64,000 nt of DNA. Origin: Octopus vulgaris. Taxonomy: Eukaryota. The DNA lies in assembly GCA_951406725.2 (NCBI GenBank), contig OX597823.1, positions 104,346,001-104,410,000 on the forward strand. The letters run 5' to 3'. Below the pieces are notes generated by a model. The model was given only the letters and a program-made list of their open reading frames with translations, was not told the origin of the DNA and did not search any database. Positions 2,805 to 60,794 of this stretch are shown here, in pieces. The translations under genes and the position numbers were made by a program. Numbering within the stretch: the first letter of the stretch is position 1; each line of letters starts with the position of its first letter.

Positions 2805-2830
2805 TTAAAAACTACCAAACTGGAAAGAAC
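2805..2830 (-). CDS. Putative terminal coding exon 7 (GSFQFGSF*)
   Basis: Acceptor GTTTTCCTTATCTGCAG, phase 1 entry, TAA at 2807-2805. Very short, so the true last exon could lie elsewhere or beyond the window. Confidence 0.55.
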
Positions 2831-2851
2831 CTGCAGATAAGGAAAACATAT

Positions 2852-2882
<31 letters not shown>

Positions 2883-3084
2883 TGTGTGTGTGTGTGTGTG
2901 TGAGAGTGAGCATATATATATATATATATCATCATCATCATCAACGTTTAACGTCCGTTTTCCATGGGTTGGACGATTTGACTGAGGACTGGCGAACCAG
3001 ATGGCTGCACCAGGCTCCAATCTTGATCTGGCAGCGTTTCTACAGCTGGATGCCCTTCCTAACACCAACCACTCCGAGAGTGTA

Positions 3085-3155
<71 letters not shown>

Positions 3156-3862
3156 TGTATGTATATATGAATAATTCTGTATGTGTGTATGATTACATAT
3201 GTATGCATGTATGAGTAGGTGTGTGTATCCAGCTGTGTGTGGAAAAGTGCATGGCCACTAATGTATGCTTCCTGAAAGCACAGCTTATGAGTATCAATGG
3301 CTCACTGAATACAATGAGTGTATGCGAGAGGACAAAGATGAACATGTGATGATGTATAAATATGAAAATACACACGTGTACATAGGTATATACTAAGGTG
3401 TGTACATTAATCCAAGGCAATATATATACATTTAAAAATTCTATTTTATTCTTTTCTTTTTATATATTTATGTATTTTTATACACTAATCTCATTGCCAG
3501 CGTTCATCATCATCGTTTAACGTCCGTTTTCTGTGCTAGCATGGGTTGGACGGAATTAACAATCCAAAATATTACCTGTAGACAAATATGTACTTCGTGC
3601 ACGGAATTACAGTAATTAATACAGGTGTACTGAGTGATATGGAAACTGTTTGTGTTGATACAAGAACAGGTACTGGAAATGAATAGGTGCGCTCAAGAAT
3701 ATTTCAAAAATATGTTTATTCACCAGGAAGGTTTGCTGCCAATTCTTAGTCTGTGTATAAGTTACCTCCCTTTACTTATCTCCCTTTGATTTGCATTGTT
3801 CGAATTTCTGTCACTATGAGAGTGATCTCGCTTGTCCCATTTTAGCGTTACCTTAACGCAAG

Positions 3863-4330
3863 TGTTGTGTAGGAATATTCAAATATAATATACTGCCTAC
3901 CAAACTGTTTGTTGGTGTGGATCTCTAACAAGATGGCTGAGGAATTTTCAGAGGTCTGTTCGCTCTGAGGAAAAACGACTATGCACAGTGGTTAATGTAA
4001 GACCCAGTGGGAGATGGATGGATACAATATGGGAGGAAAGAATTGGGGAGACAAGCAAGACGAATGTACAAGCCAAGCACCGAGGAACAGGGGCCAAAGT
4101 TAATAGAGCATGACAGCATGATTGTAGGTTAGAGGCGAGTGCGTTTGTGTTTGGAATGTAAATGTGAGCATCAAATAGAGAGAGTATGAATAGGAAATTG
4201 AACACTGAGTGGTTTCCAGAGACTTGGAATATAGAGACTTATTCTTAAAAATAAATAAAGATTGATTCACACTAGTCCCAACAAAAAATAGGGGAAAGGG
4301 TTGCACTTCATTTGCCTTTGAAACACAACA
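3863..4330 (+). mobile_element. Candidate solo LTR
   Basis: Terminal inverted TGTTGTGT…ACACAACA, internal AATAAA near the 3' end; no TSD seen. Confidence 0.4.
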
Positions 4331-4634
4331 GTCGTCAATGATACTGGAAGGAAGAATTAAACAACTTCTTTTTTTGTTTTAGTGAGTGTGGGTAATAAAA
4401 CATTATAAATAGGGCATTGTTAGATGTGTTTATTGCAATGTTTCATCCCAACAAAAACTCGTTTAACTATATCAAACAAAAGAAAACAAACAAAGAAAGG
4501 ATGCTAGGCAAGGCAGCACTAATAACAGGAGTACTAGAAATCAAAACATCACCATAATTTAAATAGCTCATAACAGGCAATCCATTAGAAACATGCACAA
4601 AGATACTTGTTTAAATGTAGAATCAATTCTCTAC

Positions 4635-4697
4635 CTGCTGGTGGCGGTGGACATGAAGGTTGGCCATATGTAGAGCCATAATTCATTGGATATTGTG
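4635..4697 (-). CDS. Exon 6: Pro/Tyr-rich cytoplasmic segment (AQYPMNYGSTYGQPSCPPPPA)
   Basis: Acceptor TTCTAACATTATTGCAG with a CTAAC branch site, donor CAG|GTAGAG, 63 nt, phase 1-1. Confidence 0.82.
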
Positions 4698-7600
4698 CTG
4701 CAATAATGTTAGAATAAAGAGAAAAATATGCACAAAGCACCAATCTGGTTTGGAAGAAATTAAATAATTAAAGCAGAGAAAAATAGATTAAGAAAGAGGG
4801 AGAAAACATAACGGTCAGTTAATCATGACGAATGCAAGAAAAAGATATAAAAAGTAGAAACAGTAGAGGAAGCTGAAGGTTGTAGAAAGACTGTCGAATG
4901 AATAGTGATTTTCTTGTTATTCTGGAGATTAACTAAGATGGTGACTGTATTAAATGGTTAAACGGACACTGAGAGACTTGTGGAAGTATTAAAGCTATAT
5001 GTAAAACTTTGAATCGCACTTGAATAACATACCTATTCCCTAACCAATATTTATACTGTATCTATAAATGGACTACACTGGACTGCTCTGATTGGGTTTT
5101 TATAGTACCTTACTGATTGATTCTTAATCACAAAGAAGGCCACTGTTGGAATCTAAGATATTAGATATACTCTGAACAGCTGCACAACACAAGATATAAC
5201 TTGAACTGAAATACTAACTTCATTCATTAAAAACAAGATAGAAAGTTATCTTTAATGAAAGAGATATTAATGCTGCCGGAGACATTAAATATAAATGTCT
5301 CTGGTCAAACAGGCAAAATATTCTGATGTTTACAAGCTCCCAAAAAAGGAGAATATACCCAGAAGACATGGTCCATAATTCCTGAGACTGTAAGGATAAA
5401 GGAAGCTGACTGGGTGAGAGAATATAAAACCAGAAATAAGTGAAATTCTTAACGGTGAGTGTAGTTTGGGTCAATAACAATGAATTATAGAAGGATTAGA
5501 ATAACAAGTTTGAGATGTTTTTATCTCAAACTGATATAAATGCCAATTTGGTTCTAACCCAATTTTGGCATTGGTCTTAAAAATAACGGTTGTGTAGAAT
5601 AATGAATGAAGATTAAACATTTGAAGTCAGGTAGTAGCAAACAGTCTTCCCAAACCTAATAACAGTGTAGGATGTATGAGCTGCAATATGAAGAGGGTAG
5701 AAATTTCTCAGTCAGTGTTAGCAAGCAAGATATGCAAAAGTAATGACAAAGAAAAGAAAAATATTTTGAAATATTTGGATTTGATAAATGTTTTCCCAAA
5801 TTATTTTCGAAAAATATTTCTGATTTTTTAATTCTTCTAACATCAAAAAAAAAAGTGAGTGAAAATATAGTGTAATTTGAAGCTAGAAGTATTAGATTGA
5901 AAATCTATTTCTCTTAATCTAAATTATTTAATAGCATCAAGTAAGGTTATTGAAACATAAGAAATGAGATGATATGACAAGATAAAAAAGAAACAATGTT
6001 GTATCCAAGTCATTGAAACATGAAAGGAAATTGAATAGTGATTAATTGATAGTTTAATTACAAAGCGGGGCTTAATCAAATATTTAAATAATATTTTCTA
6101 ACTTTCCAACATTAGAAATAAACACAAGGATTATGAAAAATATTAGGGGTTAGCTAAGCCAAAATGTTTGGAGTCATGTAGCTTGCTTAGTCAAAGACTA
6201 AAATGTTAGCTAGTGCCAATATTCTTTAATAATCACGTACTGTAGATATATGTTGGAAATATTGTAAATAATCAGAGCTAAGTTTATAATGAAGAAGATA
6301 AGGAAAAGTTGTGTAGTCATTATGCAATAGATAACTACTGCTGTTTGTCACTGAAGGAAACAGTTTTAAAGAAGTGTTTTAATAATAAGGTTTAGCATTA
6401 GTACAAGATTAATTAGTGTTGTGCATGACCTTAGCTTTGATTGGGTTTTTTTAAGTTGAATTTACGAGCTTGTATTGTTGTGTTTATTAGTTTGTATTCT
6501 AAACAATTTCATTTTGTAAAGAGAAAGTTGGCGCTGGTTGAAGATCATATCAATAAAATGGCTGAGTTGAAGAAGAGAACAACATTTCATAAAGTGGTGA
6601 AAATGAAAGAATGACAGACATTTTAAGCAATAACATGAAATGCAGAGGGTAGAAGGTAGAGCAAGTGATGCATTGCAGAGGGTAAAATAATTTATGCCAA
6701 AGAAAATGTTTTTAATTTTCTAATCTTAAAAGTAGAAGAATTTTAATATTTCTCTTTCTTTAACTAACAGAGGTTTATCCAAGCAAAAACGTAGACAAAT
6801 GTTTAAAGAAATGAAAGATGCTACATATCTCATGAAGCTGTGATGTTACAGCTCTAGTTTTTTTTTTTAATTGTGATAAAATTTGAAAACATGTACATCT
6901 ATAATATTTTAAAATCTAGTTGAACTGTGTTTGCTTTTAAGTCACTGCTATAAATAAGAGGATATATAAATATATGCTGAATGGTAGGTGTTTAAAAGTT
7001 AAAACATTTGGCTGCCATAATACAGCATTACAATAAAAAAAATATCAAAGGCTTGTATTGACTGAAAAAAATTTTTTTTTAAATATACGTTGCTAAAAAT
7101 TCTGTGGTGTGGAAGCTGATACAAAAACATATATTATCTCAAATTATTGGTGACAAACGATACTTTTGAGATTAGTCACTGTCACTTCTATTAGTGAAAA
7201 AAAAAACCCTCAACTTCAGCTTACTATGACTAGTTCTCCTCAGAGTAACACACACACACACAAATATAAAAGCATGGAAGTCAAAATTTAATAGTTTTAG
7301 AGACTTTTTTTCTTTTCTTTCTGGCTTTGCTTTGTTTCTGCAAGTTTGTTGCAAATTTTCAATTACATTGCCACTCTCTAAAATTGATAATTGGTTTTGT
7401 GATAATCAACAGTGTCTTCAGTATAAAAGATTTTTCAAAAATCCAGGATAATCAAGTATGACACATATACTATGACATGCATGTATGCATATGCCCACAC
7501 ACACACACACACACACACACCAATGGATTTCAGTAACAGTGAAATAAAGGATATTAAAATATTAATCTGGAAACATTGTTTAAGGCCACTTAAGTTAAAA

Positions 7601-9520
7601 ATACAAATATAGTATATGAACTCATTAAAATATTAAGTGAAAGTACTTTTTTATCAAGATTCTGACTGTTTGACAATTAGAATTTTGAGTAAAGCAGATA
7701 AAATTAAATAAGTGGTACTGAGATTAAAAAATATGATCCTAGTAGAAATTATTGAAATAGAGGAAACAGAAATATATATACATGTATATATATAGAAGTA
7801 GTTCCTAACATGGGTGGTCATTACTCTATTTAGGTCATTGTGAAATCACAAGAGACCAGCAAACTTCAAGGAAGTACAATGGAAGTTGCTGGGTGTTTAG
7901 AGTAGTCTGAGTTTTCTTCAGAAATAATACATTTAAGCCAGGTACAATACTTAGTTTAAGTACATTAAAAAAAAGAAAAATATCTTTGCCATGATCTGAT
8001 GGATGACAATAAAGCACTGAGCAAAATTGGTTTCTTTTGATCAAAATAAGCCACTGGATTTTCCTTAGAGGAGTTGCTTTAAAAAATGTCAACCAATGAA
8101 GGAAAGCGCTGAGCTACAAATGACTGGGAACCAATAGCATATGGCATTTTCAAACAAATTTCAGCATCAGATAGAGAAAAGGTAAATAGAATTGCTATGA
8201 GAAGATAACATAAGAAAAAAGTTCACTCCACAAACTAAGTTATTTCCCTCATTTCTTCTGGCATAATTTTGTTCGCAAACACTTCACATAATAGGAAAGT
8301 TTTGCTATCAGAAAAGGGTCACCTTAAAAATATGGATATATAAAATATTATAATATAAATATAATTTATATATAAAAAAAAAGTAAATAGAACCTGAGTG
8401 CTGCTTAATTCAATGCTATAAAAAAAAAATTCTACATTCTTTCAGATGAGGTTATTCATAGATAAATTGCAAAATTATATCTTGAATGGAGATATTTCAG
8501 AGTCCATAACGTGTTATCTTTACCTCCATATTTAGATACAAATATTTCTCACACTCTTCAGGGACAAACTTAAGTACGCCATTTTAAATTTATTTAAAAA
8601 AAGAAAACTACCTAGAAAAAAATTATAGGTATTTCTATGCAGTATTTAAAAGTGCTTGCACTTGAGTAAAACAATTAAAATAGCTTGCACTCAAGTCAAG
8701 TGTATAAATTCTGGAAAACTGAGATGTAACATAAAAATGACTAAACTTAAAAGGCAGCACAGTAATTAAGCTAAATTAGAAGCTCTTTGTACATTTGGTA
8801 TCCTGTAAAATTGATTTGAATCAAACATCCCTTTCACTATGTCAAACAGAGTGAGTACAACAATCAGCCACTTTTTCACCATTCATCTTGAAATTTAAAC
8901 AAACAAAGAAAACAGTGACACTACTTTTTGGCTAATACTGTAGAAACTATGAAATTAAACTAGAGGACAAAATTAGGAAATATGCTGAGAAGAAATCATA
9001 ACTTTTTAGAAAAATTAAAGAACAGAAAGGAATAAGAAAAAGAAAACTTATTCTGAGTGGATATTTTTATCTTCCAGGTTAAGAGTTTCGATCAAAAAGA
9101 GACGAAAGAGAATTACTATTCTTAAAATGTAGAGAGAAAAAAACAAGGATAATGAATCCTAAAAACATATACACACACATATTTACATATATATCAACCA
9201 CAATTCTAACATAAAAATATATTTAGGTTGAGTATAAATGTTTAGGCAGTTTGGATCTGGAATCTGATAGAGTACAATCTTTCACCTCAGCCTTAATAAT
9301 GAAGCAAATTAATTTTCATTCAAATAGTTACTATAAATTATAAATTTTTTCCTCTCTTAAGCCGTTGCTTAAATTGAAAAATTTGTGGCTAAAAGAGAAA
9401 TGACGACTTGCTTCCTGGATGAATCACAATTCTTTTTCTTCACCCTTAGTAGATTTTATCTTGGAATTTTAAAAAGAAACCGTTTCAAGCTGTTAATATT
9501 AAGGAATTCATATTTCAAAC

Positions 9521-9649
9521 CTTGGTTGGGATCCATCACAGGGGGAGGCATCATTCCTGGATGTGGAGGATAACCCATAGGCATAGGCCCAGGTTGATGT
9601 GGTGGCATTGGAACTGGGGGTGGTCCCATTATAACTTCCTGTCCTTCAC
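9521..9649 (-). CDS. Exon 5: proline-rich cytoplasmic region (GEGQEVIMGPPPVPMPPHQPGPMPMGYPPHPGMMPPPVMDPNQ)
   Basis: Acceptor TTTGCTTTGTTGTGCAG, donor AAG|GTTTGA (weak), 129 nt, phase 1-1; GC-rich island in an AT-rich intron. Confidence 0.88.
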
Positions 9650-10794
9650 CTGCACAACAAAGCAAATTAAATCATGACAAACTATATATAAGGAAACTGG
9701 TGTGAAACATTATTCAATACAAATCAGAGCTAATTTCTCAAATGGCATTTTCTTCAAAATACACATATGTAGTTTAGGCAATAAATAAGTACAATTCACA
9801 ATCAATTCCAAGTTTTATTGTTTTGTTTCATTTTTTACAATAGATAATATGTATACTCGTCCTGAGCAAGACATTAAACTGCAGGCTTAGTAAGGCTCCA
9901 AATCGAGAGTACAAGAGTTTTGAAGAATATGGAGATACTTTAATCACTACTACTACTACTACTACTATCATGTCCAGTCATGTCTAGGGTAATAGTACAT
10001 GTCAAGGATTCTAGTTATGGATCAAATAGCAGATGGTTTTGAGACTAAGGCATACAGGACATTGAGGAGGGTTGGTCCCTGAACATGTCACTAAGGTCCT
10101 CCAGTGTGTCGTCATGCCATAGTGTCACATGAATTAGTCCTGCTGCCTCTTACTCTTCTGATATTTGAGGAGATGAATGGATGCATCCTACAGGGTAACA
10201 AAACTTTAAGTCATATGGAGCTACATATAAATATATTATACATTTATCTGTACAAATAAAAGAAAGGATGATTGTTGATTCACTCCTCTGTTTCTCAGAG
10301 TTACCAATATGAAATATTGCTCTTGTCATGAAAATCCACTTAACATGCCACAAATACACATGCATGTAACCTATATAGTAGATATATAAACAGAGTTAAT
10401 TTTGCTATTTCTTCAGAGACAGAAAAAAATGATGAAAAAATGAAATCGATTTTTGAACTTCAGAGGTGTCAACCTGACCGATTCCAAAGAAACAAGCAGC
10501 CAATCTGTTTATATACTCGACAATTTCAGTAACTGCAGAAAACTGGACCTACTAACTTACATACTGTATCAACACTTTATCTAATAACAGGGGCCTGTCA
10601 ATGCGGATCTTAGTCCACACAGTATCAAGATATATAATATATGCAACTCATCAGGTGGTGCTATTAAGTTAGACATGGCCTGGACCAATCTTTGGACGAA
10701 ATATATCTAAGTTTTGTAGAAGGCATCTCACTTTTTCCAACATATATTGGGAAAAAACCTAATAGACCAGTGTTTTCAAGGGAAAGCACTCTAT

Positions 10795-11340: not shown

Positions 11341-11700
11341 AGAAAATGGTATGTTTTCTCTCCTGGCTTCTCTGTTACTCTCATAGTCATAACTACAGTG
11401 ATTGACCTATTAGAAATCATAACAAACCATGTTGTTCTTAACGAAATGCATTCTAAAATAAATATATGGCCATTGAAACAAACGCCAGATTATCAGGACA
11501 TGTCCAGACTCAGACCAGAATAACCCAACAGTCATTGTCTGCCTTCCGAATGGATCTGGGCTTTGGTAATAAAGGTGAGCTGCATGTAATGGCTTACTAT
11601 GAATAACATCTATCGTCATGCTCAACTTACACATGTACATTCACCACGAGGTGGACATCATTCTCAGCCACAAAAGATAAAGGATTCTTCCCATATACAT

Positions 11701-11964: not shown

Positions 11965-11995
<31 letters not shown>

Positions 11996-12171: not shown

Positions 12172-13141
12172 GTGCTTTTTACGTGCCACCTGCACAATGC
12201 CAGGGGGTCCGGCATCGGCCACGATTGGTTGGAGCTTTTAACGTGCCACCGGCATGGAAGCCAGCTAAGGCGGCGCTGGCAACGGCCCCGTTCGGATGGT
12301 GCTTTTTATGTGCCACCGGCACAGAAGCCAGTCGGGGCGGGGCTGGCATCGGCCACGTTCAGGTGGTGCTTTTTATGTGCGACCGGCACAGGAGCCAGTC
12401 GGGGCAGCACTGGCATTGGCCACGTTCGGATGGTGCTTTTTATGTGCCATCGGCACGGAAGCCAGTCGGGGCGGGGCTGGCATCGGCCACGTTCGGATGG
12501 TGCTTTTTATGTGCCACTGGCACGGAAGTCAGCTAAGGCGGTGCTGGCAACGGCCACGTTCGGATGGTGCTTTTCATGTGCCACCGGCACAGAAGCCAGT
12601 CGGTGCGGGGCTGGCATCGGCCGCATTCGGATGGTGCTTTTTATGTGCCATCGGCACAGAAGCCAGTCGGGGCGGTGCTGGCATCGGCCACGTTCGGGTG
12701 GTGCTTTTTATGTGCGACCGGCACAGGAGCCAGTCGGGGCGGAGCTGGCTGGCATCGGCCACGTTCGGATGGTGCTATTTATGTGCCACTGGCACAGGAG
12801 CCAGTTGGGGTGGCGCTGGCATCAGCCACGTTTGGATGGTGCTTTTTATGTGCCACCGGCACAGAAGCCAGTCGGGGGCGGCGCTGGCATCGACCACGTT
12901 CAGATGGTGCTTTTTATGTGCCACCGGCACAGAAGCCAGTCGGAGCGGCGCTGGCATCGGCCACGTTCGGATGGTGCTTTTTATGTGCCACCGGCACAGA
13001 AGCCAGTCGGAGCGGCGCTGGCATCGGCTACGTTCGGATGGTGCTTTTATGTGCCACCGGCACAGAAGCCAGTTGGGGCGGCACTGGCATCGGCTACGTT
13101 CGGATGGTGCTTTTTATGTGCCACCGGTACAGAAGCCAGTC

Positions 13142-13143: not shown

Positions 13144-13188
<45 letters not shown>

Positions 13189-13433: not shown

Positions 13434-13473
<40 letters not shown>

Positions 13474-14138: not shown

Positions 14139-14260
14139 CATCCTTATCAATGACATGTCCTCTCTGTTTCTTCTTCTTCCGACATATACAGTAGATGATA
14201 GCAGAAATGATTGCTACAGTGATGATGACACCAATCACAATACCAACAATACCACCAGTA
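14139..14260 (-). CDS. Exon 4: transmembrane helix, juxtamembrane Cys and basic stop-transfer (TGGIVGIVIGVIITVAIISAIIYCICRKKKKQRGHVIDKD)
   Basis: Acceptor TTTTTCTTGTAG, donor G|GTGAGT, phase 2-1 matching both neighbours. Confidence 0.92.
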
Positions 14261-16533: not shown

Positions 16534-16681
16534 GTTTTAGTTGCAGCACAGCATCTCTGTTGTCCTTCTGGTCCACAACAGTGAGTAAGACTGTCACTTT
16601 CGTAATGTCTAGGGCATATAAACATCTTATAGACTGTACCATTTTCATCAGCATCAACATAGTTGGAACAAATGGTTGGTC
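16534..16681 (-). CDS. Exon 3: Shisa-like cysteine-rich ectodomain PTICSNYVDADENGTVYKMFICPRHYESDSLTHCCGPEGQQRCCAATK
   Basis: Acceptor CTTTTATTTTTAG, donor AC|GTAATT, phase 1-2. Pattern C-x17-C(P)-x11-CCG-x6-CC with an F-x-CP motif and an NGT sequon. This frame is not in the ORF track (no Met). Confidence 0.9.
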
Positions 16682-21294: not shown

Positions 21295-22160
21295 TCTCAG
21301 ATCGCTCCTTCCAAGTCCAAGTTAATGGTTCACTGTCCAATGTCTCTAGTGTGAGCAGTGGTGCACCTCAAGGTTCAGTGCTTGGGCCGTTATTGTTTTT
21401 AGGCTTCATCAATGACTTGCCTGACGACCTCACACAACACACCCTTCTATTTGCCGACGATGTCAAACTGGTCGCTCCTCGCAATGATATAGATGATCTT
21501 CGCCGATGCCTCCACTAAGTTTGGAGATGGTCAAACGAATGAGACCTGTGTCTGAACGTGTTAAAGTGCTGTCATCTGCCTGTTGGCTCCTCTCGTGCAA
21601 CTCAACTTGATTTCAAGCCGGGTCATCTGCTGCTGGAGAAGACCGACCAGGTAAAGGACCTGGGTAGCTTGCTGGATTCTTCCTTTTCGCCTTCGGCTCA
21701 ATGTGTCCATGCTGCCAACAAAGCATGAGGAGTTCTGTTTTTGATTCAACAGTCATTCGGAATGCTCACAGCAGCCATATTCCTACTGCTCTATGTCACG
21801 CTGGTGAGACCCATATTGGAGTACGGGATTCAAGCCTCTTCTTATCTCCTAAAAGACATCATAAGTGGAAAGTGTAACCTCTCGAAAGAGCTGTTCTTCA
21901 CTCCTGCTCCGGAGCGTGGGCTGCGGGGTCACTCCGAAAAGCTCTATCTACGACGATTTCATCACAATAGGAGAGGGGCTTTCTCCGCCTGGGTTGCGGA
22001 TCCATGGAATAAGCTGCCAGACGAGATAGTGAAGATGCTGACAACCGCTCGGTTCAAAGTCTCTCTTGACCAGAAATGGCCTGAACTCTTTGTATGACCA
22101 CCCTCCCTGTCCCACCTACATGGCCTTGCTTTTGCTTTTTGAGCCAATAAAAATTGAATT
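21295..22160 (+). mobile_element. 5'-truncated CR1-clade LINE (reverse transcriptase remnant)
   Basis: Translates as …VSSGAPQGSVLGPLLFLGFINDLPD…LFADDVKL…LVRPILEYG…LRGHSEKL…WNKLP with stops and an internal deletion. Confidence 0.9.
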
Positions 22161-23417
22161 GAAAAAGAGTGACCCAAGTAGGGGGAAGATAGGTAAGTTA
22201 GCAGTTTTGTTACTTGGCATACCAAAATATGATAAATTTTCTGAATATTGAAAGTTTGTATTTTTAATATCTCTGTACAGTGTCTAAATATGTCATTTTC
22301 TCAGAATATGTTTAGATATATGACACAGAAATGATTACTTGTCTCTATTCACTAGATAATGTCAATGGAATAAGCTGCCGGGCGAGATAGTGAAGATGCT
22401 GTTATCTAGTGAATATTTTTTTCAATGGGACGAAGATTAATGAAAGATCCTGGTGAAAACAGCTAGAAAACTTGTTCAAGAAATGTTTGAAGTAATAAGA
22501 TACATCATCATCATCATCATCGTTTAACGTCCGCTTTCCATGCTAGCATGGGTTGGATGAATGACTGAGGGCTGGTGAACCAGATGGCTGCACCAGGCTT
22601 CAATCTTGATCTGGCAGAGTTTCTACAGCTGGATGCCCTTCCTAACACCAACCACTCCGAGAGTGTAGTGGGTACTTTTACATGCCACCGGCACGGGGCC
22701 AGTCAGGCGGTACTGGCAACGACCTCGCTCGAATCTTTTACACATGCCACCGGCACAGGTGCCAGTAAGGCGATGCTGGTAACAATCACGCTCGAATGGT
22801 GTCTTTTACGTGCCACCAGCACGGAGGCCAGATAGCCGCTCTGGCAACAATCATGCTCAGATGGTGCTCTTAATACCCTACTAGCACAGGGCTCGAGTGC
22901 CAGTAAGACGACGCTGGTAATGATCACGCTCGAATGGTGCCTTTTAAGTGCCATTGGCACAGAAGCCGGTTAGCCGCTCTGTCAATGATCACACTCATAT
23001 GGTGCTCTTTGCACATCGAATTTGATTTTAATTTTGATTACTGATAAATATGAGAATTCAAACTAAATATTGATGAATCACATTGAAAACATGACATTTA
23101 TACAAAAAAAAAATAGCAGCAGGGACACAATCTATTCCTTAAAGAGAAGCACTCATCTCCTGGTCACCATGAGGAATTGCATGCAGGTTAAAAAGCAGAT
23201 GTAGGAAGATATGTTTGTTGAAGAGATGATTCTTTTGTAAATGATATAGAGTTTGGTTTCTTCTATATCTGAAAATATTGTTTGTCATTTAGCACTATTT
23301 GGGATTTGTTCTGAAATGAAATTCATAATGTTGTTGGTTATTCTAAAAAAGAATTAAATACCAAAAATGAAATGCAAATCATGTAATAGATAAGAATTAA
23401 TAGTTATTTATACTTAC

Positions 23418-23669
23418 TTCGGGAAGGGTGTGTATAGTACATACGACGACTCATGTACATCCGAGAACCTATGTACAACAAACCACCGGCTACTAGTGCT
23501 TGTTTCCAACCAATTGATGATATCTTGTTTCGGGTAAAAGAAATTGACCGACCATATTTTGTTCGGAGTGTACTTCTTGATAAACTAGTTCTAGAATATC
23601 TCCTTGTAGATCTTCTGGCATAAGATATTCTGGTGGAACTGCTTCTTCTTGCATCACAAAATTCCACAA
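23418..23669 (-). CDS. Exon 2: signal-peptide end, Arg/Ser-rich basic region and hydrophobic KQALVAGGLLYIG segment
   Basis: Long polypyrimidine acceptor (TTTTTTTTTTCCTTTTTTCAG), donor A|GTAAGT, 252 nt open, phase 1-1; lies in ORF 23404..23667. Confidence 0.88.
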
Positions 23670-36234: not shown

Positions 36235-37022
36235 TAAGTTAAGTTAATTTTTGGGCTCAAAAAGCAAAAGCAAGGCCATTTAGGGGGACATGGAGTTATG
36301 TACAGGGAGGGTGTTCATGCAAAGAGTTCAGGCCATTTCTGGTTAAGAGAGACATTGAACCGAGCGGTCGTCGGCATCTTCACTATCTCATCCGGCAGCT
36401 TATTCCACGGATCCGCAACCCGGATGGAGAAAGCCCCTCTCCTTCGATTGAGATGAAATCGTTGCAGATAGAGCTTTTCAGAGTGACCCCGCAGCCGACA
36501 CTCTGGAGCAGGAGTGAAGAACAGCTCTTTCGAGAGGGTACACTTTCCACTTATGATGTTGTGAGCGAGAATGAGATCACCACGGCGGCGGCGTTTTTCT
36601 AGAGAATAAAAGTCAAGCGTCTTCAGCCTTTCTTCGTAAGACAAATGCTTGAGACCAAGAACCATGCGGGTAGCCAGCTTCTGGACTCTTTCAAAATGAT
36701 ATATGTCTTTGAGGAGAGAAGGAGAAGAGGCTTGAATCCCATACTCCAATATGGGTATCACCAGCATGACATAGAGTGGTAGGAACATGGCTGCTGTGAG
36801 CATTCCGAATGACCGTCAAATCAAAAACAGAACTCCGTGTGCTTTGTTGGCAGCATGGACGCATTGGGCCGAAGGCGAAAAGGAAGAATCCACCAAGCTA
36901 CCCAGGTCCTTTACCTGGTCGGTCTTCTCCAGCAGCAGACGACCTGGCACAATATCAAGTTGGGTTGCAAGAGAGGAGCCAACAGGCAGATGACAGCACT
37001 TTGATACGTTCAGACACAGGTC
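36235..37022 (-). mobile_element. CR1-clade LINE 3' fragment, same family as 21295-22160
   Basis: ORF 36315..36803 (PILEYG…ERVQKLATRMV…LSYEERL…RRRGDLI…LRGHSEKL); clear DNA similarity to the 21.5-22.1 kb copy. Confidence 0.9.
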
Positions 37023-41849: not shown

Positions 41850-42975
41850 CTTTACTAAAAGTAGCTTCTCGGCCTCAAGGCAGCTCTGGAACCTGGTACA
41901 TGCATTCCTCGTTGTGTCCCTGGGAAGATCTTCAAACACTTCCTTGATCTTAGCTACCAGCTCTGTCTTGGTGTTGCAGGCAGAGCAGTTGGAGTCTTTC
42001 TCAACTATACCCCACACATAATTATCCATGGAATCACAATTGGAGGAATTAGGAGGCCAGAAATTGGGTCTGGTGATGTCACAGAAATTTTCCAACAATG
42101 ACTTCTAACTCTTTCTGAAGGTGTGGCAAGGAGTCAAATCCTGCTGCCTCATATATGGCCTTCTAACAGCAACTCTCTCCAGCCAGATTTGGCCAGTCTC
42201 CAGCAACTTGACTTAGCTGTCTGAGTTGATGTAAGATGTAAGGTGGCATGATGTCACCCTCACTGAAGACACACTCAAAGACCATCACAGTTTGGGGCAA
42301 CTTGCTTTTCATGATAGGACATCCCATGGCTTTTAGGTAAGCCACTTGTTCTTCTGAGTGTCATACAACTGGTCCTAGCAGGAGTTCTTTTCATCTGAGA
42401 AGAACCAGACCATCTGCAGCTCCTGTAGAACTGAGGTGGAGCCATTCAGGAGTTTTTCTGCCTTTGTCAAGCAGTTGTCCTTGGCTTAAGCTGTCAGAAT
42501 TTGTATGAGCAGCAGCAAAGGTCTGTATTCATGGTCAACTTCCTGGTAGCAACTCCAATACACATCTCTCTCAACAAAACCTGAATTCCCTTGCTCGGCT
42601 CTTCCATCACCTTGTCCTTCAGTTACTGAATGAACTCCAGCATGCAGACACAGTCAGAACACATGTTGTGGTCCTTCCTACTGACTGCGGCTTTATAGTT
42701 TCCATTGCAGCTGATCATGTCACATCTTACAGTCTTTACAGTGTTCACAGAGCACTGAGCAGCCGTCATGATGTCGGCATTTTGACACCCAGGGCAAAAG
42801 ATCATGTTACAGGTAACTCTTTTCCAATATGCAGATGGCTTCCAATCCTTTATGTCAGCTAACTTTTTCTCAGCTACAACTTCAAAACCTTTATGCTTTT
42901 CAATGCCATTGACTGTCCACCCATACAGCAAGCTGAAAAAAAGGAGACATAAAAAATTGCCAAATTTAGCCCGAA
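41850..42975 (-). mobile_element. Decayed Tc1/mariner transposase
   Basis: WFFSDEKN, FWPPNSSNCDSMDNYVWG (WPxxSPDLNP-like) motifs; frameshifted. Confidence 0.8.
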
Positions 42976-43614
42976 CACCCTGTATTACAAAAGCATCAAA
43001 ATGGCTCTCTACCCTCTCTGCTAGCTTTACCAGTCTAATAATATTGACTGTAGTCAACATATGTTTATATTTACATCTCTCTTTTTTTTTTTATTTAATG
43101 TTTCCACCCTTCTCAAATGTTTTGAATCAGCACACATGTTCTTGCAATATGTCTTACAGTCCACTACAGAAATCATATTTTTTCATGCACTGAAATGTTT
43201 ATCTTCCTATGTGTTTTCAAACAAGCACAACAGAAAAGAGATATTTCACACATAAATGCTATTTATTTATTTGACAAAGATAGAGTGTCTCTACAAAGTT
43301 TCCATGTATGTTTGACGAGTGAAAAAAAAAATAAGGATGCAATATTCATAATGGAGGTGTAATGACTCTTATGCAGCCAGGTGAAATTCACCATTTTTCA
43401 CTAGTTTATCATATAAGCAAACACTACCTTTCAATTATGCACTGAGTATAATTGCAGGACTCACTTGCTCACACACACACACCCAATCACCTTCCTACCA
43501 ACCTATCTATCTATCTTTAACAGATCTCAGCCACAATAACAAATGCCATAACTGATCTGATCTTAATACATGTTCCAATTGAACAGTACATCAATTTACT
43601 GCATCTCTATAGCT

Positions 43615-52925: not shown

Positions 52926-52944
52926 AGGTCATAAAAAATATATA

Positions 52945-53179
52945 CAATAATCCCTCTACTATCGCAGGTGTTATGTTCCAAAACCTCCCACAGAAATAAT
53001 TAAAATCTAAAAAAATATAAATACCTATTGGTCCCAGAAACTCAGATATACTAACAAGTCCGTAATATAAATTTACAAATATTTTCCAGAAAAATCTGTG
53101 ATGTAGTGAGTGTGCAATAGGTGAACCGCAATGTGCTGAGTGCATGATAAGTGAACTGTGATATGACATGGGATTATTG
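52945..53179. mobile_element. Tc1/pogo-type MITE with TA target duplication
   Basis: TA|CAATAATCCC…GGGATTATTG|TA. Confidence 0.7.
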
Positions 53180-53566
53180 TACTGAGTTTATTAAATAATA
53201 TTTATCTTTCACCAGATGGAGTATTGATTTTGTTGATCTTACCATCATAGAATACACTATGTATGTATATCAGTGGTTTCTAAAGTGGGCAATACTGGCC
53301 CCTTGGGGGAAGTGGAAAGATCCAGGGAGGCATTGAAGAAAAGTGGGATGATAATGGGGTGGCCAAAATGGGGTGAAAGAGGTAAAAAAATAATATTAAT
53401 AGTATTAATAGGCTAATTAGTTTTAAGGTTTATTAGTGAAATACAGTTGTTTTGAATTTTCTGCAGAAAGTGTTCTATATTTGTGGTGGGAGGGTGAGGG
53501 AGCGCTAGGAATGTGGCCTGGGTGCCAAGATGGCAACAGCCTGAAAAAGCTTGGGAAACTACTGAT

Positions 53567-53599
<33 letters not shown>

Positions 53600-54329
53600 C
53601 ACGCACACACACACAGTGCAATCATTATCTACAAACAACTTATTCCAGTAGCCTATTTATTAACTAAATTGCTTGTTACACGATTAATTGAAATACATAT
53701 AAATAAGCAATTTCCAACTCTCTCTCTCTCTCGCTATATATATATATATATATACATACAGACACACATGCACACACACACGTGTGCATGCATGCATGTT
53801 CTGAATAACAGTTTATGTCCAAGAGACGGAGACAGAAGGTACAAAATTCAAACAGAAAATGTGAATTAAAGAGACACAGTGAGACTGTGTTGTTGTTGTT
53901 GTTGTTGTGTAGTTCCAAATCAGTATTCCAGCAATGACCATTTCTTTTATTTGACTTTTTATTTTCCATTTAGTCTGGATTGTCATTTGAGGGAGATTTG
54001 ACATCTATTTCTAGTAGATCAAACACCATGAAACACTTAAAAGCTTCTTCGTTATATATATAGATGTAAGAGATGAATAGACAAGAGAAGGATTACATTA
54101 ATAATGTTAATCACTCCTCTATGTAGTAAACAGAGATCACATTTAAAGTACAGCTCACCTATAAGGCAACAGAGCATATCACAAACACACAGACATGTAT
54201 GCATACACACACACACAACACACACTGATAAACATAACAACATAAACAGCATGCAAATGCCATCACCACCAACAATTATAGTAACAACAGGATCCACACA
54301 TCTATTTCTATTTCTTTACTACCCACAAG

Positions 54330-55225
54330 CCATCACATGCCAGGGGAAGAAACTAGAAATAGTTGATAGCTTCCGCTATCTAGGTGACCAAGTCTGTAGT
54401 GGAGGTGGATGCTCAGAGAGCATTGCCACTAGAATAAGAATAGCCTAGGCAAAGTTCAGAAAGCTCCTACCCCTACTGGTAACAAAGGGCCTCTTGCTCA
54501 GAGTGAAAGGGAGATTGTATGATGCATGTGTGCGAACTGCCATGCTACACAACAGGGAAACATGGGCCATGACTGCTGAAGACATGCGTAGGCTTGAAAG
54601 AAATGAAGCTAGTATGATCTGTTGGATGTGTAATGTCAGTGCGCACACACTACAGAGTGTAAGCACCCTGAGAGAAACGTTGGACATAAGAAGCATCAAA
54701 TGTGGTATGCAAGAGAGACAACTATGCTGGTATGGTCATGTACTGCATATGGATGAGGAGAGCTGTGTGAAGAAGTGTCACTCCCTAACAGTGGAAGGAA
54801 CCTATGGTAGAGGGAGACCCAGGAAAACATGAGATGAGGTGGTGAAGCATGGCCTTCGAATGTTGGGCCTCACAGAGGCAATGACGAAAGACTGAGACTT
54901 CTGGAGGTATGCTGTGATTGAGTAGACTCGGCAAGTAAAGTGAGATCACAGCCGCTGCCTACACCAATACCTTTGAATCATCGGGTGACATTCCGTGCTT
55001 GAGGAGAACTATCGAGTCAAGTAAAATCAAAATCAAATAGAATTGTAGTTGTGCCACCTGACTGGCTCCCTTGCTGGTGGCACCAGTGCTGCCTAACTGG
55101 CTCCCTGTGCCGGTGACACATAAAAAGCACTCACTACACTCTCGCAGTGGTTGGTATTAGGAAGGGCATCCAGCTGTAGAAACACTACCAGATCAGAATG
55201 GAGCCTGATGTGGCCTCCTGGCCAT
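54330..55225 (+). mobile_element. RTE-clade LINE 3' coding end plus 3' UTR
   Basis: VDSFRYLGD…VKGRLYDACVRTAML…WYGHVLHM…GRGRPRKT; probably continues the 52220-52925 piece. Confidence 0.88.
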
Positions 55226-58200
55226 TAAAAGATCATGAGGAGGTGGCATGATGGGGTTTTTTACCCTTGGATGCCCTTCCTTTTTCCAACCAATTTACAT
55301 CATATACTGGACATCTTTTATCATACCACTGGCAGCAGAAAGGTTGCTTTCTACCTACCCTGTAGCAGTTTTTATTTGGAGTTACTGGTCTCCTACACAG
55401 ATTATCTTCCCTACAGACTGGAGAGTCCATGTTACCGCCTGCAGTCCAAGTGGTAATCAACTACAAACACAAGAGTACAGGGGAAAGGGGATATATAATT
55501 TCCCCTACTCTACTGGTACTTAATTTAACCAACACTGGAAGATGAGAGGCCAAGTCATTCTTAGAAGAATTTAATAATACTGACTTCTAAACTAGAAATA
55601 AAGTCATAATTTTGAGCAAGTGTGCTGTGTATTACATAGAAGCTTGTACATGACTGGTCCTTATTCTCTTTAATCCCAAGATGGACAGAAAATTAACCAT
55701 AGAGGGATTTGAACTCAGAAGTCATATTAAACATGGCTGTGTAGTAAGAAGCTTGCTTCCCAACCACATGGTTCCAGGTTCAGTCCCACTGCATAGCATC
55801 CTGGCCAAGTATCTTCTACTATAGCCTTGTGAGTGGATTTGGTAGACAGAAACTGAAAGAAGCCCATTGTATATATATATTTGTGTGTGTGTGTGTTCCT
55901 GCCATCACTTGACAACCGATGCTGGTGTGTTTATGTGCTTGTAACTTAGCCATTTGGCAAAAGAGACCAATAGAATAAGTACTAGGCTTACAAAGAATAA
56001 GTCCTGGGGTCAATTTGTTTGACTAAAACCCTTAAAGGTGGTGTTCCAGCATGGCCGCAGTCAAATGAATAAAACAAATAAAAGAATAATTTCTCTAAAA
56101 CAACAAACACAAAACTCAAATATCCAAAGACTAGAATTGAGAACTGAGCATGGATTTCTCATATAACAAGTGAAGATACCACTACACCACAGAAGACAAT
56201 GGGTAGTTTGGTGTACTAATTGCGTGACACTCTATTGTATTTGTATTTAAAATGCCAAAAACTCTCCTGAGGAGTTTTCCCCTCAGTCTTATATTATGTA
56301 AATAATGTGGTTGCTTTGTTTCTACTGAGGATATTTTTGCATCTTATTGCGTCATTCACCTAGGGCTACTCAAAAGAAAATCACAATATCAAACTACTGG
56401 AGTTTCACTAGTGAATGACATTAGTAAAAAAAAATCTCTGTGATTATAAACAGGGAAACTAGTTGTAGTGTCGATTGCCTTCCTCTTAAGGTCATCGGGA
56501 ACTTACTGGGTTGTAGTAATGTAAAAATATTTGGAAGGGTGGGGAGCTTTTAAGAGCTAGAGCTAGAATAGTTTATTCTTTTTGCATCTGCATTAAATCT
56601 TTGGGAAAATACATTACAAATCTTTCTATTATAAATGAAATGTATATCTTCATTTGAGGATATTCAGTACAGGTAGTAGCCATTGCATAAGTATCAATGT
56701 CTGTATCTACTTTCATTCATCACAAGATTTCATTTTTCATTTCAATAACTATTATAATAGGAAATAACCCAAAACATTGGCTTTTTCTTTTTCGTTATAA
56801 TTTTGATTTGTGTCTTATACCCCATGAAACTGAGATAATAAAGTAACCATGAGGCAGACAATTACAACCACTTCATCATCATTATCATTTAAGATCCATT
56901 CTCCATGCTGGCAAGGGCTGGATAGTTCAATAGGAGCTGGTGATCCAGAGGACAGCACCAAGTTTTACTGTCTGCTTTGGCATGGTTTTGATAGCTGGAT
57001 GCCCTTCCTAATGCCTAACACTATAAAGTGTGCTGGGTGCATTTTATGAGACCAAGTACCTTTATGAGGTAACTAAGTAACTTGAAAGACCCTTCAACTG
57101 GGGGAGGGGTGGTATTGAGAGAGGTGGCCTTGTGCCAGGTGATGGGAGGTTAGGGTATATTTTTCTTTACTGCCCACAAGGGGCTAAACATAGAGGGGAC
57201 AAACAAAGACAGACAAAGGGATAAAGTTGATTACATTGACCCCAGTGCGAAACTGGTACTTAATTTATCGACCCCGAAAGGATGAAAGGCAAAGTCGACC
57301 TCAGCGGAATTTGAACTCAGAATGTAATGACAGACGAAATACCTATTTCTTTACTACCCACAAGGGGCTAAACACAGAGGGGACGAACAAGGACAGACAA
57401 ACGGATTAAGTCGATTACATCGACCCCAGTGCGTAACTTGTACTTAATTAATCGACCCCAAAAGGACGAAAGGCAAAGTTGTCATCAGTGGAATTTGAAC
57501 TCAGAACGTAACGGCAGACGAAATACAGCTACGCATTTCGCCCAGCATGCTAACGTTTCTGCCAGCTCGCCGCCTTGATGGGAGGTTAGAGTATAACAGA
57601 CGGACAGAGACAGCTGTTTTGCAATACATACATGGCTACCTCACTTGGAAAAAGGGATGAAGGGGAGAGAAAGAGAGAGGAAGAACTTCCCCCTTTCTAT
57701 ATTTTAATTCTGCTACCATATTATATAAGGACTGCAGGGCATGACTGTAATTTTTAGAAGTCTGCTTCCCAATCACATGGTTTCCAATTCGGTCCCATTG
57801 CATGGCATCTGAGGCCAAGTTTTGCTTCCTATAGCGCCGGGCTGGAAACTGAAAAAGAAGCATGTGTGAGGCTGTTTACATTTGTCTAAAGACAACTCAG
57901 CAGCCAACATTTCCAATCAATGACTTGTCTGTTGGTTTTGCACCTTCGTAAATGTGTGGACTAAGATACTCTGTACTCGATAAACAAGGGTTTGTGACAT
58001 AAAAGGGCATCCGGTTATAAAACCATTTCAGCATTAAAAAGATTTTATTTATTATTATTAGCGATCCTTCAATATTGGTATCCGAAAGAACATACATACA
58101 CACACACATATACATACAAGTCTTCCTGTCTCCATGCTACCGATGTTGGCCAAGGGCTGATGCAGCTATGTCCCTGTATCGTTACAGGCATTGCCGGCAG

Positions 58201-58348
58201 AATAAAAAGATAGACAAAGCCAACCTGAGAGATAGAACAGAAACAATGAAGAAAAACAAGTTTGAATGTACAAACGAGCGGTGAAAACATGTAGCAGAGT
58301 TTTCTTGTTTTCCTTTTTTTTTTTAATCGCGCGATGGAATGGTGCTTC

Positions 58349-58615
58349 TGTTTCGAATAAAACAATACACCACATATTCACATATATTTAAATGTTCACC
58401 ACCCTATGTATATATAAATATATATATATATTGTTGCTTATTTTGATTATAATCACCCCATTTGATTTATATGGATAATACCATACCAAATTCTGGTGCC
58501 TTTAACTTAAGTACCATATTCATCTGAATCTAAATTTTTATTGAACTTATATATATATAGGGTGGTGAACATTTAAATATACGTGAATGTGTTGTGTATT
58601 GTTTTATTCGAAACA
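58349..58615. repeat. Long inverted repeat/hairpin (~70-bp arms), MITE-like
   Basis: TGTTTCGAATAAAACAATACAC…ATTTAAATGTTCACCACCCTAT versus ATAGGGTGGTGAACATTTAAAT…GTGTATTGTTTTATTCGAAACA. Confidence 0.85.
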
Positions 58616-60284
58616 TATATATGTGTGTGTGTGTGTGTGCATACACACAGCTAGAATACGTGGGGTGCGCGCAGTTAAGGAGGCGAACGAGGGAGCTCTT
58701 ATGTAATCACTCGAGCGGCTAGAAATAGCAATGGAATCTCTCTCAAATAACATTCCACAGTCATTAAAAAAAAAACATACATATTGTCTAATGTAGTCCA
58801 AGAGATGTTTGAAAAAAATGACAAGACGGCCACTGCTGGAACGCCTATGATTACAGCTCTACATGGCCAACAACAAAGGTAAGCGTAAATATAAACATAA
58901 TAGAGAAATGTCAAGAAACACAAGCACACCGTCGGCTCCACCACCCCTGCACACTGAGGGCAACCTTGCACTCAGCTAGAATAACATCTACATTTTCCCC
59001 TTCAAAGAACACTGCAGAGTTAAACAAAGGAAGTGCATATTGGAGATAGTTACAGGTGGAAAGCCTTTGGTCGGGGGCTTACTCGATCAGTTCGATCTTG
59101 GGATTGAATAGTAATAAATTAGTAAAACAAAGGCAAGTCTGCTGGGGAAACAAATTGTCAAAAATAACATGGAACATATATGAGTGCGTCCGTGTGTGTA
59201 GGGAATATATTATGTCAAGACTGGACGATCGTACTTATGAGATTACAGCATTCCAATCGTGACCATCACGTCTTTTTATTATTTTTTTGCTTTTGTTTCA
59301 TTGTTTAATCTTGTATACACGCAAAACCCTCACGACACACATTTTTTGTTTTGTCCTGTACTGTTCGTGTTTTTCTTAATGTAAACTATTTGTGGTTAAT
59401 AAAGAAATCATCATCATCATTATTATTATTCTCAGACAATGTATCTAGAAAGACACTGTCCGCGATGTCTTGTAATTTAAACCATGTAATTTAAAAACAG
59501 ATTATACTCAGACACAAATTATCAAGGGCTTCCTAGCAGGTGTTCATTCTCTATGTTATTTTATATATTTAGAACTACAGCATCTAATGTATCCCTCTAT
59601 TTCTCAGACAATAGGATGTGATCTGAGGGGAATTTGACTGTTTTGTCTAGCAGAACGACTGATCAGGCAGAAAACACTCCTCTTTGGTTCGTGTTATTGA
59701 TGAGTGTTTGTTGTCTAAGTTTGTTTCTAGTTAGCAAACAGTATTATAAATACGTAAATATGTGTTTAAATGTAGGTGTGACGGATGTTAAGGGCGAAAG
59801 TAAAGAATACATACACCCGTTGTTTAGGGTTGCGGTTAAGGGTTTAGTGTTAGAGTTAGGGTTTAGTGTTTGGGTTTTTACGCCAAAAAACAGGTGGTGT
59901 ACGTATTCTTTACCTCCGCCGGATGGATGTCCATACGTGTGTGTTCAGACGAGGCAATAAAATAAGATGTACTTTATATTACAAAGACTTTAATTGGTAA
60001 ATTTTTATTTTTACCCTCGTCACCAAACTCTGAATAACCATTTAGAAGGAAAACAAGAAAGTAGGGAGTTGTTGCCTTTTGTAAAAAAAAAATTTTTTTA
60101 ATTTGTCCCCAAAATTATTCTGGTTAACCATTAATCTTTTGTTTTTTTTTTGGGGGGGGGGGGTCACCCCCCCCTGCAATTTCGTGCCTCTTCCATGGAT
60201 TTTCACTATTACACCTATTTCAGTGACAGGTGTAATTGTAAGACAAATACCGTTTAACTATATGCAAGCAGCCACTACAATCTT

Positions 60285-60315
<31 letters not shown>

Positions 60316-60730
60316 GAAGCCAACAGAAGATGTGTTTCTACACGCACATTGTATAATTATTGTCTTTAGAAGAAAAAAAATTAAAAATCAATTAAACATG
60401 ATTGCGATGGCCAGCATGGCCTTTGTTGGAACAGCCAAAACAAAGTACAGAACATACATTATATATATTTAGCATATGTACACAAATAGGGAAATGTATA
60501 CACAGACGAAGTCGACAAGGCATCACAGAGAGCAGAAATTATAGAGAAGCAACAATTAAGACAACGGAACAGACGACATTTCTCTTAAGATATGTAACCA
60601 TGTCATTAGAAAAACTGGAAGCGAATGTTTCCTTCGTTCCCTTTCACATGGCATGGAAAAGAAACGGGGATAGTGTTTAGAGCCGTCCCAAGTTTCATTT
60701 GTATGGTTTTTTATTATATAATCGACTTAC

Positions 60731-60794
60731 CAAATTGTAGTAAAATAGTTGAAATGATCAACAGAGTAAATAACTTCCGACGCGGTGTGGCCAT
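60731..60794 (-). CDS. Exon 1 of Shisa-like TM gene: signal peptide MATPRRKLFTLLIISTILLQF(V)
   Basis: ATG in AAG-ATG-G context at 60794, 21 codons of basic n-region plus hydrophobic h-region, perfect donor G|GTAAGT. Phase 1 matches the exon 2 acceptor and completes the signal peptide (…LQFVVEFCDA|RR). Confidence 0.85.

What the first reader, a model, noticed from the sequence alone, without database searches (positions are those of the whole stretch)
2805..60794. Hidden 7-exon gene: Shisa-like membrane protein with a Shadoo/PrP-like basic-plus-hydrophobic N-terminal module
Seen: seven exons join in frame through GT-AG introns to 267 aa. After the predicted signal cleavage (…EFCDA|RR) comes a ~78-aa stretch with about 20 Arg/Lys and no Asp/Glu, containing a small hydrophobic block (WKQALVAGGLLYIG) followed by Tyr/Arg-rich sequence. 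Then come the six-Cys domain, TM, YCIC and the Pro-rich tail. Established: C*C*CC*CC plus TM, juxtamembrane Cys and Pro-rich tail is the Shisa-like/STMC6 architecture (Shisa, WBP1/VOPP1, nematode CX), whose members act as membrane-protein adaptors. Signal peptide, polybasic tract and Ala/Gly hydrophobic core is the N-terminal layout of vertebrate Shadoo/PrP. Inference: a lophotrochozoan Shisa-like subfamily with a prion-like polycationic ectodomain that could bind glycosaminoglycans or nucleic acid, or be released at RR sites as a cationic peptide. The resemblance to PrP/Shadoo is architectural only.
Basis: partly seen in the sequence, partly recalled or inferred. Interest (0 to 1): 0.7.

Follow-up and report, generated by a model that had tools for sequence, protein, structure and literature searches.

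The report
Spiralian Shisa-like adaptor with basic tail
This is a real, already annotated octopus gene for a Shisa-like membrane protein that, like unstudied relatives in snails, worms and flatworms, carries an extra positively charged front end, and it likely works as an adaptor that would tag other membrane proteins for removal; its likeness to prion proteins is in layout only.

Summary
Six of the seven proposed exons are right; the gene is not hidden. NCBI holds it for four octopod species, and spliced contigs join exon 2 to exon 3 in 4 of 4 runs laid. The proposed exon 7 is in none of 9 annotated isoforms: the real last exons lie outside the window and add two PPxY motifs. The protein is Shisa-like (Pfam Shisa_N above cut-off, mouse Shisa3 the best structure match). 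The exon-2 module is real and old: 97 relatives were found, all 16 named ones spiralian, and 48 of 50 keep an acid-free basic tract. An oyster member is among the 37 'spiralian-specific' genes of Wu et al. 2020, not recognised there as Shisa-like. The hydrophobic block is a sequence-specific W-A-G-Y-G-Y-R-Y motif, predicted helical, unlike Shadoo's disordered core; Shadoo/PrP matches are not significant. No conserved furin site supports a released peptide. Verdict: a new, uncharacterised variant of the Shisa-like adaptors; moderate interest.

The parts
60731..60794 (-). exon 1: start codon and most of the predicted signal peptide (aa 1-21), phase-1 donor
23418..23669 (-). exon 2 (252 nt, phase 1-1): end of signal peptide, acid-free basic tract (aa 29-75), conserved W-K-x-A-x3-G-x2/3-Y-x-G-x3-Y-x2-R-x2-Y block (aa 76-99)
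   Evidence: contigs of 4 runs cover it with 0 mismatches and join it to exon 3
16534..16681 (-). exon 3: six-Cys Shisa-like domain (aa 106-154) with N-G-T sequon
   Evidence: Pfam Shisa_N 25.8 bits, cut-off 22; PDB 5m0w Shisa3 E 1.1e-4 by profile; Foldseek top hit 5m0w, E 0.035, prob 0.99
14139..14260 (-). exon 4: transmembrane helix, YCIC juxtamembrane cysteines, basic stop-transfer
   Evidence: hydropathy; helix 156-185; in all annotated isoforms
9521..9649 (-). exon 5: Pro/Met-rich cytoplasmic tail
   Evidence: in all annotated isoforms
4635..4697 (-). exon 6: 63-nt cassette exon, skipped in P0004, P0005, P0006, P0008
63..83 (-). Two further exons with two PPxY motifs follow outside the window (G000:C10 104343675-104343598, 104340627-104340503)
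   Evidence: in 0 of 9 annotated isoforms; not tested with reads

Best explanation
This is a spliced octopus gene for a Shisa-like single-pass membrane protein whose exon 2 adds a conserved acid-free basic tract and a conserved aromatic/small-residue block; it likely works as a trafficking adaptor that would bind a polyanion or acidic partner outside the cell and recruit NEDD4-type ubiquitin ligases through PPxY motifs inside. Shown: gene structure, Shisa-like domain, family-wide conservation of the module across Spiralia, PPxY enrichment, juxtamembrane cysteines. Predicted: the tract (aa 28-67) is disordered; the block (76-101) is helical and forms an N-terminal extension of the Cys domain. 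Inferred from relatives (WBP1L, CYYR1, Comm/PRRG4, Shisa2/3): palmitoylation, WW-domain binding, and ubiquitin-dependent sorting of a partner receptor. Inferred from charge alone: the tract binds heparan sulfate, mucin-type glycans or extracellular nucleic acid, or folds back on the protein's own acidic Cys domain.
For: Shisa_N matched 50 of 62 aligned members at E<=0.1; the only non-TM PDB match is Shisa3. 97 relatives at E<=1e-3; 16 of 20 looked up had names, all spiralian; 18 more trematode proteins. In 50 of 62 rows with a signal-like N-terminus and tract: median net charge +10, 48 with at most one D/E, 31 with RGG, Cys domain net negative in 41, NxS/T in 46; most of the tract, the signal peptide and the tail were not in the search profile. 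Block positions kept in 57-86% of 51-54 rows. AF2 with 62 sequences: pLDDT under 50 for 28-67, 68 for 71-80, 79-92 for 81-150, helices 76-82, 86-95, 97-101. PPxY in 37 of 43 tails against 20.6 expected by shuffling, 21 within the last 15 aa; two or more juxtamembrane Cys in 42 of 55. WBP1L binds NEDD4-family ligases (PMC6991692, abstract); CYYR1 binds WWP1 by PPxY (PMC11399591, abstract).
Against: No ligand, partner, localisation or phenotype is known for any member. Whole-protein Shisa_N scores of the octopus isoforms are just under the cut-off (20.7-21.9 against 22). The model's pTM is 0.39 and I saw no coordinates or PAE, so packing of the block on the Cys domain is not shown; with 4 sequences the model was unusable. 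The block was in the search profile, so its conservation among hits is partly selected for; the nemertean and bryozoan hits P0065 and P0068 and unnamed P0052 have a Tyr-rich stretch in its place, and P0037 and P0087 have acidic tracts. Half of the PPxY count is expected from Pro/Tyr composition. Rows were hand-picked from the hits and are related, so counts are not independent. Short isoforms P0003/P0009 lack the terminal PPxY.
Confidence: 0.6

Rival explanations
1. The exon-2 module is a true relative or working equivalent of the Shadoo/PrP N-terminus: an RGG-type tract and a disordered hydrophobic core that self-associates or changes shape.
For: Same order of parts as Shadoo (signal, Arg/Gly tract, hydrophobic block, NxT; PMC4324250 passages). 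RGG in 31 of 50 relatives and GxxxG in 31 of 50 blocks. One member (P0031) aligns to Shadoo profile positions 6-56 at E 0.26. The origin of Shadoo's N-terminus is not settled (PMC2745754 passages).
Against: No Shadoo or Prion family for exon 2 at E<=10, for 21 relatives at E<=0.05, or above 11.9 bits in 14 members; no PrP chain among PDB matches at E<=10; the Shadoo model does not hit this locus in the genome. The octopus protein has no RGG. Conserved residues are aromatic and basic; block predicted ordered. No GPI anchor, no PrP fold. All 16 named relatives are spiralian; none is a deuterostome.
Confidence: 0.07
2. The protein is a precursor: the basic tract is cut off at Arg-Arg sites and acts as a cationic (antimicrobial or cell-penetrating) peptide.
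For: Net +14 over 47 aa in octopus; dibasic sites in the linker of 23 of 51 rows; length and sequence of the tract vary freely (21-83 aa), as in such peptides.
Against: Furin-type Rx[KR]R in only 6 of 51 linkers and 2 of 51 tracts, none in octopus; low hydrophobic moment of the block (0.12-0.20); the conserved Arg-96 lies in the region predicted to be ordered. Dibasic pairs are expected in Arg-rich sequence.
Confidence: 0.1
3. Alternative topology: the first hydrophobic segment is an uncleaved anchor, the basic tract stays in the cytosol (as an RNA-binding RGG/RS region), and the block crosses or dips into the membrane.
For: A strongly basic tract right after the first hydrophobic segment could flip it (positive-inside rule, established knowledge); RGG/RS tracts are usually intracellular; one O. 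vulgaris model (P0005) makes the segment internal.
Against: The block is 14 aa, mean hydropathy 0.65 across relatives and never passes 1.2 over 19 aa in octopus, too weak for a TM; small residues at -3/-1 precede the tract in most relatives; the sequon in the Cys domain (46 of 50) fits plain type I topology.
Confidence: 0.1
4. Not a separate spiralian invention: these proteins are the spiralian side of the CX-module branch of STMC6 proteins known from nematodes, which may carry the same N-terminus.
For: Best Atlas look-alike of both the octopus protein (0.84) and the trematode relative (0.88, 169 shared features) is the same nematode CX cluster; UniRef calls three trematode members 'CX domain-containing'.
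Against: Scores under 0.9 are leads only; Pfam CX is absent from the per-protein lists and from the 25 families shown; no nematode or arthropod among the named hits; Wu et al. 2020 found no outgroup match at 1e-5 for the oyster member. No CX sequence could be fetched to compare N-termini.
Confidence: 0.3

Closest known systems
Shisa/Shisa-like (STMC6) proteins: Shisa2-9, FAM159/ShisaL, WBP1/WBP1L/VOPP1, CYYR1, TMEM92, Drosophila CG15760
   Same: Signal peptide, C*C*CC*CC domain, one TM, juxtamembrane Cys, Pro-rich tail with PPxY (family description from PMC6125347 and PMC5578492 passages).
   Different: In described members the Cys domain follows the signal peptide directly (CG15760); here about 80 aa (basic tract plus conserved block, on a separate phase 1-1 exon) lie between. 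A more typical Shisa_N paralog (47.7 bits) sits elsewhere in the genome.
Oyster CGI_10002070, one of 37 'spiralian-specific' genes of Wu et al. 2020 (PMC7441323, Supplementary Data 1)
   Same: By eye the same RGG tract, block, Cys domain and TM, very close to hits P0061/P0058; the paper's screen agrees with a Spiralia-limited range.
   Different: Listed by id and sequence only; 'shisa' occurs 0 times in the supplements and main-text listing; the oyster model has two extra Cys repeats in front. 18 of the 20 genes tested were ubiquitous in Tritia; the text I saw does not say whether this was one.
Nematode CX-module proteins (PF01705)
   Same: Best feature-level look-alike; six-Cys STMC6 branch.
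   Different: No Pfam CX match seen; N-termini could not be compared.
Shadoo (SPRN) and PrP N-terminus
   Same: Order of parts: signal, Arg/Gly-rich tract, small-residue block with GxxxG, NxT.
   Different: No significant sequence match; Shadoo is GPI-anchored and disordered, this is a TM protein with a Cys domain, a signalling tail and a block predicted to be ordered.

Membership tests
Shisa-like / STMC6 | Six Cys in C*C*CC*CC in the ectodomain | tested here: met
   C110,128,140,141,149,150 invariant in 62 of 62 rows
Shisa-like / STMC6 | Pfam Shisa_N at or above cut-off | tested here: met
   exon 3 alone 25.8 bits against 22; whole isoforms 20.7-21.9; 50 of 62 members at E<=0.1
Shisa-like / STMC6 | Shisa fold | tested here: inconclusive
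   Foldseek top hit mouse Shisa3 5m0w, prob 0.99 but E 0.035, rmsd 4.1 over 50 columns; VIA list filled by the TM helix
Shisa-like / STMC6 | Signal peptide, single TM, Pro-rich tail with PY motifs | tested here: met
   hydropathy; PPxY twice in P0001/P0006 and in 37 of 43 tails; cleavage site judged by rule, SignalP not available
Shisa-like / STMC6 | Acts as adaptor for a receptor or WW-domain ligase | not testable with these tools
   inferred from WBP1L, CYYR1, Comm/PRRG4
CX module (PF01705) | Pfam CX match | tested here: not met
   not in the lists; one search showed only 25 of 52 families; Atlas lead 0.84-0.88
Prion family (PrP/Shadoo) | Sequence match to Shadoo/Prion profiles or PrP chains | tested here: not met
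   best Shadoo 11.9 bits, E 0.26, in 1 of 14
Prion family (PrP/Shadoo) | GPI anchor | tested here: not met
   internal TM followed by a 120-140 aa tail
Prion family (PrP/Shadoo) | RGG/basic tract after the signal peptide | tested here: met
   basic tract in octopus without RGG; RGG in 31 of 50 relatives
Prion family (PrP/Shadoo) | Disordered Ala/Gly hydrophobic domain | tested here: inconclusive
   small-residue block with GxxxG in 31 of 50, but predicted helical at pLDDT 68-91 with conserved aromatics; prediction only

The most novel reading that the evidence does not exclude
A Spiralia-wide class of surface receptors that capture extracellular nucleic acid or glycosaminoglycans with an RGG-plus-hydrophobic module and send cargo to lysosomes through NEDD4 ligases, where the module is a true homologue of the Shadoo/PrP N-terminus that moved as one symmetrical exon, giving the prion family's N-terminal half an invertebrate ancestor. 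(Without the homology claim, the polyanion-capturing adaptor alone: about 0.3.)
Probability: 0.05. Interest if true: 0.85.

Novelty: new variant of a known kind. Interest (0 to 1): 0.42.

Why it matters
It defines an unstudied subfamily kept across molluscs, annelids, nemerteans, bryozoans, Seison and flatworms, and gives an identity (Shisa-like adaptor) to one of the orphan 'spiralian-specific' genes of Wu et al. 2020. It also shows that surveys reporting loss of shisa genes in molluscs such as Lottia (PMC7653359 passages) missed a divergent branch: Lottia P0013 has a Shisa_N match at E 0.0096. An acid-free basic tract held for so long on the outside of a membrane adaptor points to a polyanion ligand and is simple to test. 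It does not, on present evidence, bear on prion origins.

Tried and rejected
No RNA holder was listed on record by the run finder (kinds are guesses). Only the exon 2>3 junction was laid with reads; the others rest on annotated proteins. Two-chain folding of block against Cys domain gave no verdict (score 0.01, alignment not used). AF2 with 4 sequences was unusable (mean pLDDT 47). VIA-align wide search returned only helices matching the TM. Word-indexed protein searches with the octopus query found only 2 and 4 cephalopod proteins. The Shadoo model gave two stop-containing chance hits elsewhere in the genome. Rfam: 0 matches in the window. Three look-ups in earlier findings returned nothing. 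Pei and Grishin 2012 is not held: I know it only second-hand, and it may already describe this N-terminus under CX or Shisa-like groups. Paper searches listed no paper on this subfamily's function; Smp_173730 and LOC106867966 had 0 occurrences in the 12 papers listed of 13. bioRxiv supplements were not searched. Rejected: 'hidden gene', exon 7, a TM role for the block, a conserved furin cut.
Full report
Observation. Exons 60794-60731, 23669-23418, 16681-16534, 14260-14139, 9649-9521, 4697-4635 and 2830-2805 join in frame through GT-AG introns to 267 aa; residues 29-109 have 17 Arg, 3 Lys and no Asp/Glu. The window lies at G000:C10:104346001-104410000 of a 2.8-Gb genome. Contigs of 4 of 4 runs laid (four studies; three guessed RNA, one of unknown kind) skip exactly the intron between exons 2 and 3, with GT..AG ends and no mismatch, and carry 30-61 more letters 5' of exon 2, where exon 1 has 64. 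Whether the joined form stands in DNA runs was not given.

The gene is not hidden. Exon 2 finds annotated proteins of Octopus sinensis and O. bimaculoides; their clusters hold 9 isoforms, among them O. vulgaris hypothetical proteins and one named 'protein shisa-4 isoform X3'; Argonauta and an unnamed Logan protein follow. The genome gives P0006 at 305 of 305 residues (exon 6 skipped) and P0001 at 325 of 326 (exon 6 kept) with two exons beyond the window's left end, and a 21-nt micro-exon at window 83-63 explains P0003, P0007 and P0009. The true C-terminus has two PPxY motifs, the last within the final eight residues.

Family. Exon 3 matches Pfam Shisa_N at 25.8 bits, cut-off 22; whole isoforms score 20.7-21.9. 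Mouse Shisa3 (5m0w) is the best PDB match by profile (E 0.0083 with 4 sequences, 1.1e-4 with 27 and 62) and by fold (Foldseek E 0.035, prob 0.99). A profile of residues 58-183 from four cephalopod proteins found 97 representatives at E<=1e-3 among 1.84 billion (one, P0075, is an unrelated BTB protein by eye). I looked up 20; 16 had names: seven gastropods and bivalves, two annelids, Tubulanus, Bugula, Watersipora, Seison, Macrostomum and two trematodes (phylum labels are my knowledge). A 27-sequence profile added trematode proteins only, 18 named trematodes of 21 hits, in a search where only the 7,992 best candidates were scored. Independent support: Wu et al. 2020 (PMC7441323; I read passages, sections 6 and 10 and searched the four supplements) list oyster CGI_10002070 among 37 genes conserved in molluscs, annelids and flatworms with no outgroup match; by eye it is very close to hits P0061 and P0058. 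They do not call it Shisa-like in what I saw.

The exon-2 module. I aligned 62 hand-picked sequences (four cephalopods, 52 further hits, 6 cluster members). In the 50 with a signal-like N-terminus and a tract of 15 aa or more, the tract is 21-83 aa, median net charge +10, with at most one acidic residue in 48 and RGG in 31; the octopus tract is Arg/Ser/Thr-rich without RGG. The Cys domain is net acidic in 41 and has an NxS/T sequon in 46. Only 18 of the 47 tract residues were in the search profile, so this is mostly not a product of the search. After dropping 6 near-duplicates, W76, A79, G83, Y87, G89, Y93, R96 and Y99 are kept in 57, 72, 81, 75, 86, 70, 70 and 72% of 51-54 rows; this block was in the profile. 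Exceptions: P0052, P0065 and P0068 have a Tyr-rich stretch instead, P0037 and P0087 have acidic tracts. AlphaFold2 with this alignment predicts the tract disordered (28-67 under 50), pLDDT 68 for 71-80 and 79-92 for 81-150, with helices 76-82, 86-95, 97-101 and an ordered link into the Cys domain (pTM 0.39, no coordinates seen). So the module is best read as two things: a charge-only tract and a sequence-specific extension of the Shisa domain. Exon 2 is flanked by phase-1 introns. The phase-1 intron before the Cys domain looks conserved: 19 of 26 hits without a recognised block upstream have residues that fit a read-through splice acceptor at that place, against 4 of 37 with the block (Fisher p 5e-7; my pattern put several spliced proteins, P0002 among them, in the first group; 34 of 97 hits did not fit the pattern). 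Insertion of the module as an exon between signal peptide and Shisa domain is an inference from this.

Shadoo/PrP. Shadoo is GPI-anchored, has RGG repeats and a GxxxG hydrophobic domain and appears disordered (PMC4324250 passages); prion genes are described as vertebrate-only and ZIP-derived, with the origin of Shadoo's N-terminus open (PMC3203146 and PMC2745754 passages). Relatives of the octopus protein resemble that layout more than octopus does. But no Shadoo or Prion family was listed for exon 2 (E<=10) or 21 relatives (E<=0.05); 1 of 14 members gave Shadoo at E 0.26; one search showed only 25 of 52 families; no PrP chain came up in four PDB searches at E<=10. A released cationic peptide finds no conserved furin site.

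Mechanism. Tails carry PPxY in 37 of 43 against 20.6 expected from shuffles, and two or more juxtamembrane Cys in 42 of 55. STMC6 proteins are described as short single-pass proteins in trafficking and degradation, with PY motifs binding WW domains (PMC5578492 and PMC6125347 passages); WBP1L binds NEDD4-family ligases and controls CXCR4 ubiquitination, and CYYR1 binds WWP1 through PPxY (abstracts). I infer the same inside function here, tuned by alternative tail exons, and an outside function in which the basic tract binds a polyanion or an acidic partner and the block-plus-Cys domain gives specificity (confidence 0.6). The relation to nematode CX proteins is open: both Atlas searches gave the same CX cluster at 0.84 and 0.88, leads only. 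Pei and Grishin 2012 could not be read and may already note this N-terminus.

Verdict. Real gene, corrected 3' end; new variant of a known kind; interest 0.42.

Noticed in passing
G000:C10:104487645-104487827 (L004) and window 60773-60731: O. vulgaris model P0005 fuses an upstream gene (weak Pfam SOSSC, E 0.049, below cut-off) to this gene, entering inside exon 1; read-through transcript or annotation chimera.
   Followed up: no
L011 (G000:C20:5555787-5555915): A second, more typical Shisa_N exon (47.7 bits) in the same genome, also opening with a phase-1 acceptor; its upstream exons were not examined.
   Followed up: partly
window 12211-13140 and 22680-23009: 67-bp tandem array (13.8 copies) and related GC-rich repeats in introns; contigs pile on the 22288-22771 repeats at very high depth with many A>G/T>C differences, which may be repeat copies or RNA editing.
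   Followed up: no
window 21729-22097, 36315-36815, 54449-54832, 62018-63188, 42623-43090, about 48156: Broken mobile-element pieces in and beside the introns: LINE-like reverse transcriptase ends, an LTR-type RT-like piece, and transposase-like pieces (labels by eye from recall, not scanned).
   Followed up: no
P0040, P0016, P0029 (one search hits) and oyster CGI_10002070: Variants of the family: CUB-like domains (by eye) inserted between the basic N-terminus and the Cys domain in P0040; doubled modules or Cys repeats in others, which suggests tandem paralogs or fused gene models.
   Followed up: no
P0013 (Lottia gigantea LOTGIDRAFT_174838): A published survey lists 0 shisa genes for Lottia (PMC7653359), yet this protein has the six-Cys pattern and Shisa_N at E 0.0096.
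   Followed up: partly
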